Shown here: positions 24,479 to 31,961 of the stretch, piece after piece
Position numbering within the stretch: the first letter of the stretch is position 1
How the letters are laid out: each line of letters begins with the position of its first letter
Notes under the pieces: model-generated
Database searches by the model: none
Told to the model about the DNA's origin: nothing
The model's input: the letters and a program-made list of their open reading frames with translations, nothing else
Source: Planctomycetaceae bacterium
GTDB taxonomy: Bacteria; Planctomycetota; Planctomycetia; Planctomycetales; Planctomycetaceae
Assembly: GCA_014762625.1 (NCBI GenBank)
Contig: JABURQ010000208.1
Location: 309 to 64,308 of the forward strand
Direction: 5' to 3'
Length of the DNA: 64,000 bases
Program-made: the position numbers and the translations under genes

Positions 24479-25939
24479 ATGATGCGCTCCTTTGAATGCC
24501 CTCGATGTGGGGTAACCATCCAAGACTCGGGACAGTCCTATCCCGAGGCCTGTCCAATCTGCCACGCTCAGCTTGATGTCGCGGAGGCTGTCCACCTGCT
24601 CGATTTGGATGCTGAGTATCAGCTCAACGCCCCTCCTCAGGGGATGAAGGCGGAAGTGATCGAGGCGACACAGGACCGATTGATGCTATCGATCCCGGAA
24701 GGGGGCAAGAGAGCCAGATCACTGGGCTGTTTTGGCATGCTCTGGTTGCTGATTACCGGAGCGGTGACGTCCGTATTCGCCTTCGCCGGCATGGAAGAGC
24801 TCGCCAGGGAAGAGGAGTGGGGGCCTTATTTTGTCTTTGGGATATTGAGTCTGTTTTGGCTGGTCGGTCTGGGCATGTTGTACTTTGCCGTCAAACTGAA
24901 ATATACACGCGGGTATCTGTTTCTATCTCGAGAACGAGCCGTCCATCAGAGCATCTTTTTCAGTCGCAAAACGAATACGGAAATCATACTGAATGCGAAC
25001 AGTCACGCTCGGCTGGTCGAGTCCTATCAAGAAAATGAGTCACCCGTTTATCGCATTAAAATAGACACTGACGGCAAGGACATTCATTTTGGCACGGGGC
25101 TCCCACACGAATTGAAAGAGTGGTATGTTGAGACCATCAACAGGTTTCTGGCATGGGCCTACGGGGAGGCAGTCGATTCGACGGTTCCCCAGAGAGACGT
25201 CTTTGGAAACGTCGACCGCGGGAGCCTATGTCCCATGTGCGGTGCGATGGTGGACGAGCATCAGGGGGAACGGTGTCAATCGTGTGGTGCTCGTTGGGAA
25301 TGGGGCGGTGACAAGATTGAATCAGCCCGCCTCGCGGACGAAATTTCCCCGGATGCATTGTCGCCCTCCAGTCTTTGTTCAGTCTCGCGAACAAAACAGG
25401 GGGCGTGGGAACTCACGTACGCCATTCGACATCTCGCCGACAACAGCAGTGGGATTGGTGCGTTCCTGATTTTCGGTCTCCTGTGGGAAGGATTTATCAG
25501 CTTTTTTACAGTGATGATTGTTTCTTCGGGGGATATGTTCGGATTTCTGGCACTCCTGTTCACGATCCCTTTCCATCTGATTGGAATCTTACTGCTAACG
25601 GTGTCCGTCTTTGCGATGTTTGGTAAATTCCGGTTGACGTTGACATCCGACCGAAGTTCCGCGAAATGGGGCATTGGTCCACTCGGTTACACGATGCGTT
25701 TTGCCACGTCTTCGATTACGGACGTGTACGTTAAGCATGGTGGTGCGTTGTCTTCCTTCAAAAACACGACAAACAATCCCCCGGGTACATCCACATCGGA
25801 AGGCGTCTCCTGTATCCTGTTAGCCGCCGGAAAGCGGATCCCGGTGACCAGCGATGCCTCGTATTCGGAATCCCGAGAAATTGCCGGTGTGATACATTAC
25901 TGTCTCCGTGATCTGGGGCACCGTCTGCAGGATGAGTGA
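24479..25939 (+). CDS. Membrane protein with an internal tandem duplication: (zinc ribbon, 2 TM helices, beta-rich domain) x2
   Basis: CPRCG...CPIC near the N-terminus and CPMCG...CQSCG at about residue 250, each followed by two hydrophobic helices and a domain of about 80-100 aa. No family recognised. Confidence 0.5.
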   Translation: MMRSFECPRCGVTIQDSGQSYPEACPICHAQLDVAEAVHLLDLDAEYQLNAPPQGMKAEVIEATQDRLMLSIPEGGKRARSLGCFGMLWLLITGAVTSVFAFAGMEELAREEEWGPYFVFGILSLFWLVGLGMLYFAVKLKYTRGYLFLSRERAVHQSIFFSRKTNTEIILNANSHARLVESYQENESPVYRIKIDTDGKDIHFGTGLPHELKEWYVETINRFLAWAYGEAVDSTVPQRDVFGNVDRGSLCPMCGAMVDEHQGERCQSCGARWEWGGDKIESARLADEISPDALSPSSLCSVSRTKQGAWELTYAIRHLADNSSGIGAFLIFGLLWEGFISFFTVMIVSSGDMFGFLALLFTIPFHLIGILLLTVSVFAMFGKFRLTLTSDRSSAKWGIGPLGYTMRFATSSITDVYVKHGGALSSFKNTTNNPPGTSTSEGVSCILLAAGKRIPVTSDASYSESREIAGVIHYCLRDLGHRLQDE

Positions 25940-27335
25940 GACAAAGCCGGAGACCAAAGCGGACATCATCAACGGTCCGTTAGCGCGGGTGATCTTCTAT
26001 CTTGCGCTTCCGATTTTACTGGAAAACTTCCTGGCCTTCCTGGTCGGTTTTTACGATGTCATTCTCGCGGGGCGTATTTCCGAACATGCGACAAAAGCCA
26101 TCGGGATTACCTCCTACGTTGGCTGGTTGGCATCGATGTTGTTTGGTCTCGTGGGGACGGGAACCACTGCGCTTATCTCCCGGCACTATGGGGAACGACG
26201 GTATTCCGATGCCAATATATTTCTCAACCGATCTCTCGCTCTGGCGGGAGTGATCGGTGTGTTAATTGCCGGGACCTTCTACACGGCGGCTCCTATGGTG
26301 GCGCACTTGCTGAATATGCAGGGAGAGGCTTACGAGATCGCTGTCCGCTATTTACGCTTCGATTCGTTCGGTCATCTCTTTTCCGGCATGACATTCATCG
26401 GTGCGGCGGCTTTGCGCGGTGCGGGAAATATGCGTCTTCCAATGCTGATTCTCGGCTTCATGAATCTGGTCAATATTCTTGTATCCACGGTCTTGGTATT
26501 CGGAGTGGGAACCAATGTTGGTTTATCTCATCAATGGTTCTCCGGTTGGGGAGTGGATGGGATTGTCGCCGGTACGGTCTCCGCAAAAATCTGTGGGAGC
26601 CTGGTCATGGTGGCTTGCCTCATCCGCGGAAGTGGTTCCCTGAAATGGGACAGCTCCAAGTTTGGTTTGATGGACGATTACGTCCGCCGAATTCTGAGAA
26701 TCGGCAGTCTGGCGGTCATCGACAATGGAATTGTCTGGATCGGTCAGTTTTTCTTTTTGATGATTATCTCCCAACTCGACGCCGATCCGACGGAATCCTA
26801 TGTCTTCGCCGCACACGTGATTGGAATTCGAGTGGAAGCGATCTCATTCCTGCCGGCATTCGCCTGGGGATTGGCAGCGTCCACGGCTGTGGGGCAGTCA
26901 TTAGGAGCGATGAAACCGGAGCGTGCTCGACGCGCGGGCGTGGAAGCACTGCGACAATGTTCCGTGTTCATGGTTATTCTGACGTTAGTATTTTACTTTG
27001 GCGCCGAGGAGATTTACCGCTGGATGAGTGATGAGCCGAAGGTCTGGAAAGTTGGCGTTCCTGCGTTTCGATTTCTGGCAATGTTTCAATTGCCGTTGGC
27101 TGCAGCGATCATTTTCAGTACGTCTCTCCGCGGAGCCGGTGATACTCGTTCTCCCATGATCATTTCATTCATTGGGGTGACTTGCGTTCGGTTGCCGGTT
27201 GCGTATTTATGTGGAGTGACTTTGGGTTGGGGACTGCTTGGGGCATGGGTTGGCATGTTTTCGGACGTCTGTCTGAAAGCAGTTTTGTTCTCCTATCGTT
27301 ATTTGACCGGTACATGGACCGATCTGAAAATTTAA
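25932..27335 (+). CDS. MATE-family efflux transporter
   Basis: About 467 aa with 12 predicted TM segments. The N-terminus (GPLARVIFYLALPILLENF) is typical of NorM/DinF-like MATE pumps. Its ATG overlaps the upstream stop (ATGAGTGA). Confidence 0.85.
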   Translation: MSETKPETKADIINGPLARVIFYLALPILLENFLAFLVGFYDVILAGRISEHATKAIGITSYVGWLASMLFGLVGTGTTALISRHYGERRYSDANIFLNRSLALAGVIGVLIAGTFYTAAPMVAHLLNMQGEAYEIAVRYLRFDSFGHLFSGMTFIGAAALRGAGNMRLPMLILGFMNLVNILVSTVLVFGVGTNVGLSHQWFSGWGVDGIVAGTVSAKICGSLVMVACLIRGSGSLKWDSSKFGLMDDYVRRILRIGSLAVIDNGIVWIGQFFFLMIISQLDADPTESYVFAAHVIGIRVEAISFLPAFAWGLAASTAVGQSLGAMKPERARRAGVEALRQCSVFMVILTLVFYFGAEEIYRWMSDEPKVWKVGVPAFRFLAMFQLPLAAAIIFSTSLRGAGDTRSPMIISFIGVTCVRLPVAYLCGVTLGWGLLGAWVGMFSDVCLKAVLFSYRYLTGTWTDLKI

Positions 27336-27399
27336 TGTTGCCTGAAGAACGCTCCGTCCGCTTGATTTCGTGCCCCAAACCTTCATAATTGGCTGAGTA

Positions 27400-27514
27400 G
27401 GGATCGAAACGCTACCTCCAATTACGGTGGGGCCTTGTGAACCGGGTCAGGTCGTAACTGAAGCAGCCCTAAGCAATCCGTCTCAGGTGTATGCGGGGGT
27501 AGCGTTTCGCTCCC
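27400..27514 (+). ncRNA. ffs: Small bacterial SRP RNA (4.5S-type, ffs)
   Basis: A long terminal helix GGGATCGAAACGCTACC / GGTAGCGTTTCGCTCCC encloses the conserved domain IV core ACCGGGTCAGGTCGTAACTGAAGCAGCC (compare E. coli CCAGGUCAGGUCCGGAAGGAAGCAGCC). It occupies the classic position upstream of dnaX. Confidence 0.75.
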
Positions 27515-27642
27515 TTTTCTCATGCGCCTCAAGGTTCGCCTAAAATCGAAGAATCAGGGGCGAAATGTCCCCGCTAATGTTTGTATTCGGCTATCATGAC
27601 AACACAGAAAACTTGTCCTCACTCAAGATACGGTGATTCGCG

Positions 27643-29364
27643 ATGACGGAGACGTCGCACTACACAGTTCTCGCTCGACGCTTTCGACCACAATCTTTTG
27701 GAGACGTCGTCGGGCAGCAACATATCGCTCAGGCTCTCAAAAACGCGATTCTGGGAAGTCGAGTGGCCCATGCCTACTTGTTCACCGGCGCTCGGGGTGT
27801 TGGTAAAACTTCCACTGCGCGTATACTCGCCAAGGCTTTGAACTGTCCCCACGCGGTGGACGCGGTTCCTTGTAATGAATGTGAAATATGCACCAGCATC
27901 TCATCTGGGAATGATGTTGACGTGTTGGAAATCGATGGTGCTTCGAATCGACGGATTGATGACATCCGCGATATTCGAGCGAATGTTAGTGTCAAATCGA
28001 TGAGATCTAAGTATAAGGTCTACATCATCGATGAGGTCCATATGCTGACGACGGAAGCGTTCAACGCGCTGCTGAAAACGCTCGAAGAACCGCCTCCGAA
28101 TGTCAAATTCGTCTTCTGTACGACTGAGCCGCAAAAAGTTCCCGATACCATCCTTTCGCGTTGTCAGCGGTTCGATTTTTCATCCATCGAAACAAGTAGC
28201 ATTACTGAACGCCTGCGACAAATTGCGGAAGCGGAAGGGTATACGGTCGAGGATGAAGCGTTGGATTTGGTCGCCAGACGGGCAGCCGGATCGATGCGAG
28301 ACAGCCAATCACTCTTTGACCAGCTTCTGGCCTTCGGCGATAGTAATCTCACCGCCGATGACGTTCATCGTTTATTGGGAACGGCGGGAGACGAGCAATT
28401 AACAACCGCCTATGACGCAATCGTGTTTCGCGATCCTGCGAAATTGCTGGAATGTCTGGATGACACACTCAATTCCGGCGTGCAGTTAAGCGAGTTTTTC
28501 AATCAGATCCTCGGATATACACGAGATTTGATGGTCGTGGCGGCAGGAGCAGGAAAGGTCTCATTGCAATCGGTTTTTAACTCCCAACGACCTGTTTTGC
28601 AGGAGCAGGCGGAACGTTGGGGGATGGAGACCATTGTCACCGCGATGCAGATTCTGGCGGAAGCGAAAACGCAGATGGGGCGGTCGATCAATGCTCGTCC
28701 AATCGCAGAGTTAGCGTTGATCCGTCTTTGTCATCTTGGAGATTTAAAAACTTTGGCAGTAGCGATGAAAGCTCTCGAGCAGGGTCAGCCTCTGATGGTT
28801 AGGGGGGGGCAAACAGGCGCCACTCCGCCATCTCCCGAGAGAACAAACGACACTCAAAAAAAAAGTGAGAATCAACCACAGAATGCCGTAAAAGCAGGAC
28901 AAACAGGCCGTCAGGAAAGCACGGTGATCGATTTGAATGATCGAAACAGACGGGAATTTCTGTCGCAAGTGATTGCGAAAGTGGAAGATAAGGTTAAGCT
29001 GCACCTTTCGTCCAGTTCGGAAAGTGCAATTTCCGGGCCAAACCAACTGGAAATTCTCTTTCCAGTGAAGTATGATTTGTCGAGACGATACTGCGAGAAG
29101 CCGGAAAATCTCCGTTTAATCGAGAATACGGCTTCCGACCTCGCTGGACGTCCCATACAAATTCGTATCAAAGTTGATCAACAAGCGGTTAGTGAGGAGA
29201 GCTATGAGCCAAATGAGCCGCCTCCTGCCGAACGCCCCAGGCCAGTTCCCGCGGATCTCGATTCTGTATCGGACTCGTTGGTACATCAGGCCGTTGATCT
29301 CTTTAAAGCGAATTTAGTCAAGGTTCAGCCGTTAGGTAAACCTTCAACAAATCAGGAAGGATAG
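27643..29364 (+). CDS. dnaX: DNA polymerase III subunit gamma/tau
   Basis: Walker A GARGVGKTS, zinc module CNECEIC, DEVHML, and the SRCQRFDF sensor motif. 573 aa. Confidence 0.92.
   Translation: MTETSHYTVLARRFRPQSFGDVVGQQHIAQALKNAILGSRVAHAYLFTGARGVGKTSTARILAKALNCPHAVDAVPCNECEICTSISSGNDVDVLEIDGASNRRIDDIRDIRANVSVKSMRSKYKVYIIDEVHMLTTEAFNALLKTLEEPPPNVKFVFCTTEPQKVPDTILSRCQRFDFSSIETSSITERLRQIAEAEGYTVEDEALDLVARRAAGSMRDSQSLFDQLLAFGDSNLTADDVHRLLGTAGDEQLTTAYDAIVFRDPAKLLECLDDTLNSGVQLSEFFNQILGYTRDLMVVAAGAGKVSLQSVFNSQRPVLQEQAERWGMETIVTAMQILAEAKTQMGRSINARPIAELALIRLCHLGDLKTLAVAMKALEQGQPLMVRGGQTGATPPSPERTNDTQKKSENQPQNAVKAGQTGRQESTVIDLNDRNRREFLSQVIAKVEDKVKLHLSSSSESAISGPNQLEILFPVKYDLSRRYCEKPENLRLIENTASDLAGRPIQIRIKVDQQAVSEESYEPNEPPPAERPRPVPADLDSVSDSLVHQAVDLFKANLVKVQPLGKPSTNQEG
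28855..28891 (+). other. A9 slippery run in dnaX with stops in both shifted frames (candidate gamma-producing recoding site)
   Basis: CAA AAA AAA AGT GAG lies at codons 405-409. The -1 frame reads AAG TGA (stop at 28866-28868). The +1 frame stops at 28889-28891. Confidence 0.45.
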
Positions 29365-29367
29365 ATT

Positions 29368-29724
29368 GTGTTCAAATCGCTTGGAAACATCGCCAATCTC
29401 ATGAAACAAGCCCAGGAAATGAAATCTCGCATGGGTGAGTTGGAGGGCAAGTTGGCGGAAATTCGCGTCAAAGGAAGTGCCGGTGGTAGCATGGTGGAAG
29501 TAGAAGCCAACGGCCAGCAGAAGGTTTTCTCTGTCCGGATTGATGATTCGCTCCTCGATGATCGGGAGATGCTCGAAGATCTCGTGACTGCTGCTACGAA
29601 CGATGCGTTACAAAAAGCCAAACAGGCGGCCGCCGAGCAAATGAGCGAAATCACCGGCGGGATGGATATGCCGGGGATGGAAGAGATCATGAAAAATTTC
29701 AATCCCAATACCTCCGGTGCCTGA
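29368..29724 (+). CDS. ybaB: YbaB/EbfC-family nucleoid-associated protein
   Basis: 118 aa with a GTG start 8 nt after GGAAGGA. MKQAQEM...GGGMVEV-type core. Conserved dnaX-ybaB-recR synteny. Confidence 0.85.
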   Translation: MFKSLGNIANLMKQAQEMKSRMGELEGKLAEIRVKGSAGGSMVEVEANGQQKVFSVRIDDSLLDDREMLEDLVTAATNDALQKAKQAAAEQMSEITGGMDMPGMEEIMKNFNPNTSGA

Positions 29725-29784
29725 GACACGGCATCGTCTTCCACAAATTTTCAAGATGCTTACGAAAGAATCACGGAATGGACC

Positions 29785-30414
29785 ATGAATCAGCGCAAGG
29801 ATCGCTTTGAAGAATCACACCCGTTCGGCAGCGCGTTCGCGCGTTTGATCGATCGGTTTTCCCGCTTGCCGGGAATTGGGAAAAAATCGGCAGAACGACT
29901 CGCCAGTCACATATTGATGTCCCATCAGGATGAAGCGGACGAATTAGTCCAGGCAATCCAGGATGTGAAACGTCTGGTGAAACGCTGTTCGGTTTGTTTC
30001 AACCTCAGTGAAGAAGAACAATGCCCGATCTGTCGCGATCCCCGTCGCGATCACTCGCAAATCTGTGTGGTGGAGCAACCGCGGGATGTCACTGCGATGG
30101 AAGGTGCGGGGGTGTTTGCAGGCGTGTACCACGTCTTACACGGTCGAATCTCGCCACTTGATGGAGTGGGGCCTGAAAACTTAACACTGGACGCTCTTTT
30201 GAAGAGAGTTCGACAAGATGAAGTCGAAGAGGTTGTAATGGCGACCAACCCCAACACAGAAGGAGATGGCACAGCATTATTTATCACCAATCTGTTGCAA
30301 AATGAACCTGTGAAAATTACACGCCTCGCCAGAGGAATCGCGACCGGAAGCGTTCTTGAATTTGCCAACCGCGAGATGCTGGCAGATGCCATGCGTGGGC
30401 GACAGAATATTTAA
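29785..30414 (+). CDS. recR: Recombination protein RecR
   Basis: 209 aa. It has a helix-hairpin-helix ([13 protein letters not shown]), a C4 zinc finger ([16 protein letters not shown]) and a Toprim segment. Confidence 0.9.
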
Positions 30415-30482
30415 TTTTCAATTTTAGACTGAAACCACTTTATCCATTGGGCCCCGGTCGGGGATCATCGAAAGAAACGATC

Positions 30483-31961
30483 ATGCATTTGAATCTGTCC
30501 TCACAGATGACGATGAAGCAGGAGCACGTAATGTCTCCGAACATGATCAAGTCGATGGAGATCCTGCAACTGAATTCGATGGGACTGCTGGAGAAGGTCG
30601 ATCAGGAACTCGAAGACAATCCTCTGCTCGAAAACGAGAATTCCGACGACGAGTTTCAAGACGATGAGGCTCTCAACGAGAATCTCGACACAGACGACTC
30701 ATCGACTGACGAAAAAGAGTTGGTCGTCGAAGATAATGAAAATAACGAGGATGACTTCGAACGCCTTGTGGAGATGGCGTCCGAATGGCCCGATGACAAC
30801 GTAACGACGGCCGGAGGGACATCCTCAAATGCTATCAGTGATATGCGGGAGCGGCAGGATGACATGATGGCCAATGCGGTTGACCATCCGCAGTCGATCC
30901 AGGAATCGCTCGTTGAACAACTCAGTTTTTTCGACCTCTCGGATACAATTCGTCAATTCGCGGAATACATCATCTATAACCTCGATGATGACGGACGCCT
31001 GGTGGCGAGTTTGTCGGAAATGACGCAGGTCTTTCCTGTGGAGATCAGTAACGAACAAGCGGAATTAGCACTTAGAACGGTCCAAAAATTAGATCCTCCG
31101 GGAATTGCGGCTCGCGATTTGAAAGAATGCTGGCTGTTGCAAGTTCCCCCCGATCATCCGATGCGAGACATCCTGATTACTTTGATCTCTTCCCATCTCG
31201 ATGATCTGGCTCACCGCAGATTACCGCAAATCCAGCGTAAGACAGGCTATTCGGTTGAAACGATCAAAGCCGCACTCGAAGAAATGAAAACCTTCAATGC
31301 GTTTCCGGGACGCTCGCAAGAGGCGGAACCGGTTCAGAAAGTGACCGCCGATATGGTGGTCGAGAAGGATGACGACGGAAAATATGTGGTTCGCCTTCTG
31401 GACGAATACGTCCCTTCGTTGCGAATCAGCCCTAAGTATGCAGAGATGCTGAAGAACGGCGTCGATGATGGAACGCGCGAATTTATCAAGAATAAACTTG
31501 AATCAGCCAAATGGTTGATTGAAGCAATCGAGCAGCGTTTCAGTACGATGATAAAAGTGGCGCAGACCATCGTTGATTTTCAAACGGATTTCCTTGAGAA
31601 CGGCCCCGAACACATTGTGCCGCTCAAAATGCAACAGGTGGCCGATGTGGTGGGCGTTCATGTCACCACCGTCTCGCGGGCTGTCAATGACAAGTGGATC
31701 CAGACTCCTCGCGGTCTATTCGCACTGAAGCGATTCTTCGGCGGAGGGACTCAAACCGCAGATGGTGAGGAGGTGGCTCTCGACATCGTGAGGCTGAAAC
31801 TCAAGGAAATTATTGAGAATGAAGACAAGGATTCACCACTTAGCGACGATGCACTCGTGAAAGAGCTCAAGAAGCAGGGTTATCCACTGGCCCGAAGAAC
31901 CGTGACGAAGTATCGCAAGATGATGAATATTCCGTCATCACGTCACCGCAAATCATTTTGA
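30483..31961 (+). CDS. rpoN: RNA polymerase sigma-54 factor
   Basis: Region I (MKQEHVMSPNMIKSMEILQL), an acidic region II, and a C-terminal HTH plus RpoN box (ARRTVTKYRKMMNIPSSRHRK). Confidence 0.9.
   Translation: MHLNLSSQMTMKQEHVMSPNMIKSMEILQLNSMGLLEKVDQELEDNPLLENENSDDEFQDDEALNENLDTDDSSTDEKELVVEDNENNEDDFERLVEMASEWPDDNVTTAGGTSSNAISDMRERQDDMMANAVDHPQSIQESLVEQLSFFDLSDTIRQFAEYIIYNLDDDGRLVASLSEMTQVFPVEISNEQAELALRTVQKLDPPGIAARDLKECWLLQVPPDHPMRDILITLISSHLDDLAHRRLPQIQRKTGYSVETIKAALEEMKTFNAFPGRSQEAEPVQKVTADMVVEKDDDGKYVVRLLDEYVPSLRISPKYAEMLKNGVDDGTREFIKNKLESAKWLIEAIEQRFSTMIKVAQTIVDFQTDFLENGPEHIVPLKMQQVADVVGVHVTTVSRAVNDKWIQTPRGLFALKRFFGGGTQTADGEEVALDIVRLKLKEIIENEDKDSPLSDDALVKELKKQGYPLARRTVTKYRKMMNIPSSRHRKSF

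What the first reader, a model, noticed from the sequence alone, without database searches (positions are those of the whole stretch)
28855..28891. A9 run in dnaX at the gamma/tau boundary with immediate stops in both shifted frames
At codons 405-409 of the 573-codon dnaX the sequence is CAA AAA AAA AGT GAG, with nine consecutive A residues at 28856-28864.
- A -1 shift, or one extra A in the mRNA, reads AAA AAG TGA and terminates at once.
- A +1 shift, or one A fewer, terminates 8 codons later at 28889-28891.
The site sits just after the clamp-loader core. E. coli uses A AAA AAG followed by UGA at the equivalent place to make gamma by -1 ribosomal frameshifting, and Thermus thermophilus uses transcriptional slippage on an A9 run. 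Even the downstream context (A-run followed by AGUGA) resembles the E. coli site. I am not aware of this being described for planctomycete dnaX.
Basis: partly seen in the sequence, partly recalled or inferred. Interest (0 to 1): 0.62.

Follow-up and report, generated by a model that had tools for sequence, protein, structure and literature searches.

The report
Conserved poly-A slippage site in dnaX
A run of nine A's in the middle of the DNA-replication gene dnaX is kept in nearly all planctomycete relatives, with stop codons just after it in both shifted frames, so it most likely lets RNA polymerase slip and make a short (gamma-like) as well as the long (tau) clamp-loader protein, as already shown for Thermus thermophilus.

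Summary
dnaX is window 27643-29364 (573 codons) and the A9 run lies at 28856-28864 (codons 405-408). The -1 frame stops at 28866-28868 and the +1 frame at 28889-28891. It is the only A/T run of 9 or more in the 64 kb window.

It is not chance. Of 82 non-redundant, mostly Planctomycetaceae dnaX loci, 75 carry an A9 or A10 run (rarely A12 or A13) at the same place, as do 18 of 19 Gemmataceae loci. The surrounding linker is otherwise not alignable. There is no other A/T run of 9 or more in 303 kb of flanking DNA. Stops lie within 30 nt in the -1 frame in 95 of 97 genes and in the +1 frame in 89 of 97 (null about 0.3 each).

None of the E. coli frameshift stimulators is present: no in-frame A_AAA_AAG, no Shine-Dalgarno-like element, no downstream hairpin and no Rfam hit.

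The best reading is Thermus-type programmed transcriptional slippage. A9 or A12 transcripts would give tau (63 kDa). A10 would give a 408-aa product, and A8 or A11 would give 415/416-aa products (about 45 kDa), all lacking the tau C-terminal domain.

No RNA or protein evidence could be obtained. I class it as a new member of a known kind. I found no paper describing it for planctomycetes.

The parts
27643..29364 (+). dnaX ORF (573 codons plus stop); the zero frame encodes the full-length tau-like DnaX, 63.1 kDa
   Evidence: ORF list; Pfam DNA_pol3_delta2 at 6.6e-46, DNAX_ATPase_lid, DNA_pol3_gamma3; mass computed
27643..28773 (+). Clamp-loader core (ATPase, lid and domain III, aa 1-377), shared by the long and the predicted short products
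   Evidence: Pfam domain III match ends at aa 377
28774..28911 (+). Low-complexity, fast-evolving linker that holds the A-run
   Evidence: The linker is not alignable among relatives of 71-85% identity except for the A-run
28856..28864 (+). A9 homopolymer, the proposed RNA polymerase slippage site (template T9)
   Evidence: Sequence. It is the only A/T run of 9 or more in the window. It is conserved as A9 or A10 in 75 of 82 mostly Planctomycetaceae loci and as A9 in 18 of 19 Gemmataceae loci. It is A10 through the substitution G28865A in about 96%-identical environmental strains.
28866..28868 (+). TGA stop in the -1 frame. It is read after one extra A (A10 mRNA) and gives a 408-aa, 44.8-kDa product ending QKKK.
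   Evidence: a -1-frame stop lies within 30 nt in 95 of 97 relatives against a null of 0.30
28889..28891 (+). TAA stop in the +1 frame. It is read after one A fewer or two extra (A8 or A11 mRNA) and gives 415/416-aa products ending VRINHRMP.
   Evidence: a +1-frame stop lies within 30 nt in 89 of 97 relatives against a null of 0.32
28912..29361 (+). Tau-specific C-terminal region (DnaX_C-like), absent from the predicted short products
   Evidence: Conserved among relatives (alignment A2). PF20964 DnaX_C is hit by 4 of 28 aligned orthologues, best E-value 4.8e-5. The window's own copy gives no Pfam hit.

Best explanation
The A9 run is a programmed transcriptional-slippage (realignment) site of the Thermus thermophilus dnaX type. 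While RNA polymerase copies the T9 template stretch, the short rA:dT hybrid can realign, so a fraction of dnaX mRNAs carry one or more extra A's, or one fewer. Transcripts with 9 or 12 A's are translated normally into full-length tau (573/574 aa, 63 kDa). Transcripts with 10 A's put the ribosome in the frame that stops at once (TGA 28866-28868; 408 aa, 44.8 kDa). Transcripts with 8 or 11 A's stop at TAA 28889-28891 (415/416 aa, about 45.7 kDa). The short products keep the whole clamp-loader core (domains I-III) but lack the tau C-terminal domain, so they correspond to gamma.

Shown here: the sequence features, their position after domain III, and their strong, specific conservation. Inferred: that RNA polymerase actually slips here, that a short protein accumulates, and that it acts as gamma.
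For: 1. Position. The run lies 28 codons after the end of domain III and before the conserved C-terminal domain.
2. Conservation. 75 of 82 non-redundant, mostly Planctomycetaceae loci have A9 (27), A10 (46), A12 (1) or A13 (1) at the equivalent place. 18 of 19 Gemmataceae loci (59-71% GC) have A9. The run is also present in Pirellulales and Phycisphaerae loci.
3. Island of identity. The three closest relatives (71-85% aa identity) keep the run while the flanking linker is unalignable.
4. Such runs are otherwise avoided. There are no other A/T runs of 9 or more in 303 kb flanking these genes. Outside the run, Lys codons are AAA 466 to AAG 530.
5. Both shifted frames are closed nearby. A -1 stop lies within 30 nt in 95 of 97 genes and a +1 stop in 89 of 97. 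The nulls are 0.30 and 0.32, the naive binomial P values are 1e-47 and 1e-34, and 95 distinct downstream contexts are involved. Closure of the +1 frame is expected for slippage and not for -1 frameshifting.
6. Run length. The run in the tau-linker region is essentially always 9 or longer, never a bare heptamer. One Gemmataceae locus has A8.
7. Frame-preserving change. About 96%-identical environmental strains have A10 by the substitution G28865A, with no indel, which creates A10-TGA.
8. No ribosomal-frameshift stimulators.
9. Precedent. T. thermophilus dnaX uses an A9 run with stops in both frames to make gamma by transcriptional slippage, as summarised in PMC1088944 and PMC5009743. Poly-A dnaX sites were predicted in Chlorobi, Bacteroidetes and Verrucomicrobia in PMC3711429.
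Against: There is no direct evidence. The only RNA data that hold this sequence are low-depth oligo-dT sediment metatranscriptome contigs. They stop at the run and do not span it, and internal oligo-dT priming is a confound. No proteomic data are available. Every A9 or longer run also contains an in-phase A_AAA_AAA heptamer, so some ribosomal -1 frameshifting cannot be excluded. The -1 stop is on average closer than the +1 stop (median 3 against 11 nt). Seven Planctomycetaceae loci have no run at all, so the device is dispensable or replaceable. The slippage propensity of planctomycete RNA polymerase is unknown. The binomial P values ignore shared ancestry.
Confidence: 0.72

Rival explanations
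1. Ribosomal recoding is the main route. This would be E. coli-type -1 programmed frameshifting on the in-phase A_AAA_AAA heptamer (28857-28863), or ribosome sliding on the poly-A tract, ending at TGA 28866-28868 on an unedited A9 mRNA.
For: An in-phase A_AAA_AAA heptamer exists here and in every run of A9 or longer. The -1-frame stop is very close (1 nt here; median 3 nt in relatives). E. coli dnaX makes gamma this way at the equivalent place (PMC5009743).
Against: The in-frame heptamer is A_AAA_AAA, not the highly shift-prone A_AAA_AAG. Rfam finds no DnaX frameshift element at E up to 10. The 50 nt downstream fold weakly: -4.3 kcal/mol against -10.2 +/- 3.7 for other windows of the same ORF, and a mean z of +0.55 over 74 relatives. 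Shine-Dalgarno-like 4-mers upstream occur in 14% of loci against 11% of controls. Seven A's would be enough, yet the run is held at 9-10. The +1 frame is also closed in 89 of 97 genes. From general knowledge, two or three AAA codons are fewer than the tracts reported to cause ribosome sliding.
Confidence: 0.12
2. The run is conserved for another reason, and any truncated DnaX is a tolerated by-product without a gamma function. Possible reasons are a required Lys-Lys(-Lys) patch in the linker, a transcription or translation pause site, or an RNA-processing site.
For: The encoded motif is always two or three lysines (QKKS, QKKN, EKKK and so on). Seven Planctomycetaceae loci do without it. No function of gamma has been shown in this phylum.
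Against: A lysine patch would use AAG about as often as AAA (466 to 530 elsewhere) and would not need flanking A's to bring the count to 9-10. It would not explain the nearby stops in both shifted frames. Nor would it explain the frame-independent placement of the run, which starts at codon phase 0, 1 or 2.
Confidence: 0.08
3. The run is a DNA-level contingency locus, with phase variation by replication slippage at the homopolymer, or a sequencing or assembly artefact.
For: Homopolymers of 9-10 are prone to replication slippage. A few MAG loci show odd lengths or split ORFs: L157 has A12 with two ORFs, L178 has A10 with two ORFs, and L149 has A13.
Against: dnaX/tau is essential, so an off state would be lethal. 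97 independent assemblies keep tau in frame. Four DNA metagenome assemblies of a near-identical strain span the run without an indel. The split-ORF loci match the two-ORF dnaX architecture already described (PMC3711429).
Confidence: 0.03
4. The A9 run and the nearby out-of-frame stops occur by chance in a compositionally biased linker.
For: Within the single window, A8 runs occur as often as expected by chance (5 against 4.7). About 10-12% of positions in dnaX have stops in both shifted frames within 33 nt.
Against: Conservation across about 100 genomes of 47-71% GC, with no such run in 303 kb of flanks.
Confidence: 0.01

Closest known systems
Thermus thermophilus dnaX A9 transcriptional-slippage site (Larsen et al. 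2000, as summarised in PMC1088944 and PMC5009743)
   Same: It is the same gene. An A9 run lies in a single tau ORF downstream of the clamp-loader core, with stop codons close by in both non-zero frames. No obvious flanking stimulator is needed. The predicted outcome is tau from faithful or +3 transcripts and gamma from all other transcripts.
   Different: The phylum differs (Planctomycetota against Deinococcota). The run sits at 71% of the ORF rather than nearer the end. Many relatives use A10, and a few have tandem A9/A10 runs. mRNA heterogeneity and the two proteins are demonstrated in Thermus but not here.
Two-ORF poly-A dnaX genes of Chlorobi, Bacteroidetes and Coraliomargarita (Antonov et al. 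2013, PMC3711429, Fig. S3)
   Same: A poly-A tract (mostly A10) lies at the gamma/tau junction of dnaX and is predicted to work by transcriptional realignment. Coraliomargarita belongs to the same PVC superphylum.
   Different: In those genes the zero frame ends just after the run, so gamma is the standard product and tau needs the shift. In the window tau is the zero-frame product. Only L157 and L178 among the relatives look like the two-ORF form.
E. coli dnaX -1 programmed ribosomal frameshift cassette (A_AAA_AAG, upstream SD-like element, downstream stem-loop)
   Same: The site is at the same place in the same gene, the A-rich slippery sequence is followed by a -1-frame UGA, and the biological output is the same (gamma lacking the tau C-terminal domains).
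   Different: There is no in-frame A_AAA_AAG, no SD-like stimulator, no downstream hairpin and no Rfam match. The run is longer than needed for frameshifting, and the +1 frame is also closed.
Caulobacter crescentus DnaX processing by ClpXP (bioRxiv 10.1101/2022.11.10.516041)
   Same: It produces a shortened DnaX lacking the C-terminus from a single tau ORF.
   Different: It is post-translational proteolysis with no slippery nucleotide motif. It could be what the seven run-less Planctomycetaceae use, but that is speculation.

Membership tests
Thermus-type dnaX programmed transcriptional slippage site | Lies within dnaX, after clamp-loader domain III and before the tau-specific C-terminal domain(s) | tested here: met
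   Domain III ends at aa 377 and the run is at aa 405-408. A DnaX_C-like conserved C-terminus lies downstream.
Thermus-type dnaX programmed transcriptional slippage site | Homopolymeric A (or T) run of about 9 or more, long enough for RNA polymerase realignment | tested here: met
   A9 at 28856-28864; relatives have A9 or A10
Thermus-type dnaX programmed transcriptional slippage site | Tau encoded by one uninterrupted ORF, with stop codons close to the run in both non-zero frames | tested here: met
   Stops lie 1 nt (-1 frame) and 24 nt (+1 frame) after the run; 95 of 97 and 89 of 97 relatives have them within 30 nt
Thermus-type dnaX programmed transcriptional slippage site | Purifying selection on the run itself in relatives | tested here: met
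   75 of 82 and 18 of 19 loci carry it; flanks are not conserved; there are no other such runs in 303 kb
Thermus-type dnaX programmed transcriptional slippage site | mRNA population heterogeneous in the number of A's while the DNA is homogeneous | tested here: inconclusive
   DNA metagenome contigs span the run without an indel. RNA contigs (depth about 2, oligo-dT libraries) end at the run and do not span it. The run in relative L097 has no RNA coverage.
Thermus-type dnaX programmed transcriptional slippage site | Two DnaX proteins (tau and gamma) made in vivo, gamma ending in the shifted-frame residues | not testable with these tools
   No proteomic resource is available. Predicted products are 573 aa and 408/415/416 aa.
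E. coli-type dnaX -1 ribosomal frameshift cassette | In-frame A_AAA_AAG heptamer | tested here: not met
   The zero frame reads CAA AAA AAA AGT, so the in-phase heptamer is A_AAA_AAA. AAG occurs only in the -1 frame.
E. coli-type dnaX -1 ribosomal frameshift cassette | Shine-Dalgarno-like stimulator about 10 nt upstream | tested here: not met
   No GGAG, GAGG or AGGA in the 18 nt upstream in the window; present in 14% of relatives against 11% of controls
E. coli-type dnaX -1 ribosomal frameshift cassette | Stable stem-loop a few nt downstream of the slippery site | tested here: not met
   The downstream 50 nt fold at -4.3 kcal/mol against an ORF mean of -10.2 +/- 3.7; mean z is +0.55 over 74 relatives. 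No Rfam hit at E up to 10.
E. coli-type dnaX -1 ribosomal frameshift cassette | Stop codon in the -1 frame immediately after the site | tested here: met
   TGA at 28866-28868
Two-ORF poly-A dnaX (Antonov 2013) | The zero frame terminates just after the poly-A, and tau continues in another frame | tested here: not met
   The window's zero frame runs on for 500 nt to 29364. Only L157 and L178 show the split layout.

The most novel reading that the evidence does not exclude
The single-ORF A9/A10 slippage site is ancestral and nearly universal in Planctomycetia. It recurs in Phycisphaerae, Bacteroidota, Ignavibacteriota, Fibrobacterota and Desulfobacterota. If so, stimulator-free RNA-polymerase slippage, rather than E. 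coli-style ribosomal frameshifting, would be the commonest way bacteria make gamma. Run length (A9 or A10, interconverted by point substitution) and tandem runs (Gimesia-like A9-TTG-A10) would act as an evolvable dial for the gamma:tau ratio.
Probability: 0.4. Interest if true: 0.55.

Novelty: new member of a known kind. Interest (0 to 1): 0.4.

Why it matters
Why bacteria keep two DnaX forms is an old open question. Independent inventions of gamma (frameshifting, slippage, proteolysis) are the main argument that it matters. A slippage site held across about 100 planctomycete genomes, with GC content from 47 to 71%, adds a whole phylum to that argument. It does so in organisms for which genetic tools exist, according to a review abstract. 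A synonymous AAG recoding would therefore give a clean tau-only mutant.

It also matters for annotation. Single-ORF sites of this type are invisible to frameshift finders, so the short product goes unannotated. Split dnaX calls in MAGs (L157, L178) may be real two-ORF genes rather than assembly errors.

Tried and rejected
1. Rfam scan of 27000-30500 at E up to 10 found no DnaX frameshift element, only SRP RNA upstream.
2. RNA evidence was not obtainable. No run holds the window at high share. Four oligo-dT sediment metatranscriptomes hold a 96%-identical relative only as depth-2 contigs that do not cross the run. A try with the cultured Schlesneria sp. T3-172 locus (L097) gave no coverage at its run.
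The nearest relative is a Planctomycetaceae MAG at 79-85% identity.
4. Searches for a conserved hairpin downstream of the run, or abutting it upstream (terminator-like stimulator), were negative apart from a slight GC-driven stability excess upstream.
5. Shine-Dalgarno-like enrichment was not found.
6. A profile search of the C-terminal domain against PDB sequences gave only marginal hits to uS3 and the DnaA N-domain (E about 0.01-0.3), and I did not use them. Pfam DnaX_C hits in 4 of 28 relatives were used instead.
7. Larsen et al. 2000 (PMC26496) is not held in the library, so Thermus details are taken from PMC1088944, PMC5009743 and PMC3711429.
8. The Gemmata-directed scan did not return G. 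obscuriglobus, so no well-studied species with RNA-seq was available.

Full report
**1. Observation**

The window carries a 573-codon ORF at 27643-29364 (+). Its product has the DnaX signature: DNA_pol3_delta2 (6.6e-46), the DnaX ATPase lid, and gamma/tau domain III at aa 236-377. The neighbourhood is the classical one:
- SRP RNA at 27411-27506, just upstream.
- ybaB (29368-29724), recR (29785-30414) and rpoN (30447-31961) downstream.

Codon 405 starts at 28855 and the DNA reads CAA AAA AAA AGT GAG. Nine A's lie at 28856-28864. The -1 frame reads AAA AAA AAG TGA, with the stop at 28866-28868. The +1 frame stops at TAA 28889-28891 after eight sense codons. Every coordinate in the finding is correct. 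The run is the only A/T run of 9 or more in the 64 kb window. Taken alone that is not remarkable, because A8 runs occur as often as in shuffles (5 against 4.7).

**2. Conservation in relatives**

I fetched dnaX loci from one genome per species.
- The three closest relatives (71-85% amino-acid identity; L081/L083, L082, L074) have A10, A9 and A10 at the same place. Stops follow within 3-13 nt in both shifted frames. The surrounding linker, both protein and DNA, is essentially unalignable.
- A scan seeded with planctomycete domain III returned 80 mostly Planctomycetaceae loci. After removing duplicates and adding the window and earlier loci, 75 of 82 carry a run of 9 or more A's in the tau linker: 46 A10, 27 A9, one A12 and one A13.
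- A Gemmata-seeded scan gave 19 Gemmataceae loci of 59-71% GC. Eighteen have A9 (one of them is the query locus itself), one has A8, and one A10 locus is split into two ORFs.
- Pirellulales and Phycisphaerae examples exist (L007, L009, L051, L029). So do isolated cases in Desulfobacterota, Ignavibacteriota, Fibrobacterota and Bacteroidota (L012, L019, L035, L038, L075).
- Outside dnaX, the 303 kb of flanking DNA in these loci contain no A/T run of 9 or more. Lys codons elsewhere in the genes are AAA 466 to AAG 530. The all-A spelling is therefore selected, not compositional.
- Metagenome contigs of a strain about 96% identical to the window span the site without an indel. They carry G28865A, which turns A9-GTGA into A10-TGA while keeping tau in frame.

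**3. Shifted-frame stops**

Over 97 planctomycete genes with the run, a -1-frame stop lies within 30 nt in 95. A +1-frame stop lies within 30 nt in 89. For positions in the same ORFs in general, the frequencies are 0.30 and 0.32. The naive binomial P values are 1e-47 and 1e-34, and 95 distinct downstream 15-mers are involved, so this is not one inherited sequence. These P values ignore phylogeny, but the effect is very large.

**4. Mechanism**

Two mechanisms are known to make gamma at this point in dnaX.

The E. coli cassette needs an in-frame A_AAA_AAG, a Shine-Dalgarno-like element upstream and a stem-loop downstream (PMC3711429 Fig. 1; PMC5009743). None of these is present here:
- The in-phase heptamer is A_AAA_AAA.
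- Rfam finds nothing at E up to 10.
- The 50 nt after the run fold at -4.3 kcal/mol, against -10.2 +/- 3.7 for other windows of the ORF. Over 74 relatives the downstream region is, if anything, less structured than the rest of the gene (mean z +0.55).
- Shine-Dalgarno-like 4-mers upstream are not enriched (14% against 11%).
- No hairpin consistently abuts the run upstream.

The Thermus thermophilus mechanism needs only an A9 run and nearby stops in both non-zero frames (PMC1088944; PMC5009743). That is exactly what is conserved here. Three features favour slippage over -1 ribosomal frameshifting:
- The run is held at 9-10 rather than the 7 that frameshifting needs.
- The +1 frame is closed as well as the -1 frame.
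- The run starts at any codon phase.

Because every run of A9 or longer contains an in-phase A_AAA_AAA, a minor ribosomal contribution cannot be excluded.

**5. Predicted products**

| A's in mRNA | Length | Mass | C-terminal end |
|---|---|---|---|
| A9 | 573 aa | 63.1 kDa | full-length tau |
| A12 | 574 aa | 63.2 kDa | full-length tau with one extra Lys |
| A10 | 408 aa | 44.8 kDa | ...QKKK |
| A8 | 415 aa | 45.7 kDa | ...VRINHRMP |
| A11 | 416 aa | 45.8 kDa | ...VRINHRMP |

The short forms retain domains I-III. They lose the conserved C-terminal domain, which four of 28 aligned orthologues match to Pfam DnaX_C (best E-value 4.8e-5).

**6. What is not shown**

No RNA or protein data could be brought to bear. 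The only RNA runs holding this sequence are oligo-dT sediment metatranscriptomes kept as depth-2 contigs. One contig ends exactly at the run and the next starts 20 nt later, so none spans it. That pattern is equally expected from low depth or from internal oligo-dT priming. A second try on a cultured Schlesneria locus had no coverage at its run. Seven Planctomycetaceae loci lack any run, so the device can be lost or replaced.

**7. Comparison with the literature**

- Transcriptional slippage on A9 in T. thermophilus dnaX is experimentally established (summaries).
- Antonov et al. 2013 predicted poly-A realignment sites in dnaX of Chlorobi, Flavobacterium, Cytophaga, Capnocytophaga and the verrucomicrobium Coraliomargarita. 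Those are the two-ORF kind, the only kind their frameshift finder could see.
- Baranov et al. 2005 explicitly left truncation-type cases out of their survey.
- Full-text searches combining dnaX, slippage or realignment, and planctomycete names found no paper describing this site in Planctomycetota.

I therefore class it as a new member of a known kind: well supported by comparative genomics, unsurprising to recoding specialists, and not yet confirmed by experiment.

**8. Verdict**

The interpretation as a gamma/tau recoding site is supported, with the Thermus-type transcriptional mechanism favoured (confidence 0.72) over E. coli-type ribosomal frameshifting (0.12). Interest is 0.4.

Noticed in passing
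window 28802-28809: A G8 run (codons for R-G-G) lies 47 nt upstream of the A9 run. In about 96%-identical environmental strains it is broken by G-to-C substitutions at 28802, 28803 and 28808, so unlike the A-run it is not conserved.
   Followed up: partly
L108, L119 (Gimesia sp. MAG), L126; about 640-700 nt after each locus's match start: These loci have tandem slippery runs: CAAAAAAAAATTGAAAAAAAAAATGA (A9, three bases, then A10; A9 plus A9 in L126). Each run has its own immediate -1-frame stop. This could raise or tune the fraction of truncated product.
   Followed up: no
L157 (A12) and L178 (A10): In these two MAG loci the frame carrying the clamp-loader core stops 5-8 nt after the run, and another frame stays open for 553-763 nt. 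This is the two-ORF dnaX layout of Antonov 2013, or a homopolymer assembly error. L149 has A13.
   Followed up: no
L085, L091, L093, L103 (related to each other), L102, L136, L154: Seven Planctomycetaceae dnaX loci have no A-run of 7 or more, and no other long homopolymer, in the linker. Four of them share a conserved ...SLKTA... linker motif, which suggests one loss in a clade. How, or whether, they make a short DnaX is unknown.
   Followed up: partly
L012, L019, L035, L038, L075: Single-ORF A9-A11 runs occur at aa 374-426 of dnaX, with both shifted frames closed within 26 nt. They are found in Desulfobacteraceae, Ignavibacteriota, Fibrobacteria and Bacteroidota MAGs. The Thermus-type layout therefore seems scattered over several phyla.
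   Followed up: partly
window 27411-27506 (+): A bacterial small SRP RNA (ffs; 41.5 bits, gathering score 40) lies 136 nt upstream of the dnaX start. The order is ffs-dnaX-ybaB-recR-rpoN, with a MatE transporter gene upstream at 25908-27335.
   Followed up: yes
L074/L160, about 530 nt after the match start: This MAG's dnaX, with 81% amino-acid identity over the segment matched (residues 7-371), changes frame near aa 177 of the core ATPase. It then continues in another frame through the A10 run. It is probably an assembly error rather than a recoding site.
   Followed up: no
window 28810-28819 and 28897-28908: Short imperfect direct repeats CAAACAGGCG and ACAAACAGGCC (encoding GQTG) lie on either side of the A-run, in the linker. 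Their significance is unknown and they are probably low-complexity coding sequence.
   Followed up: no
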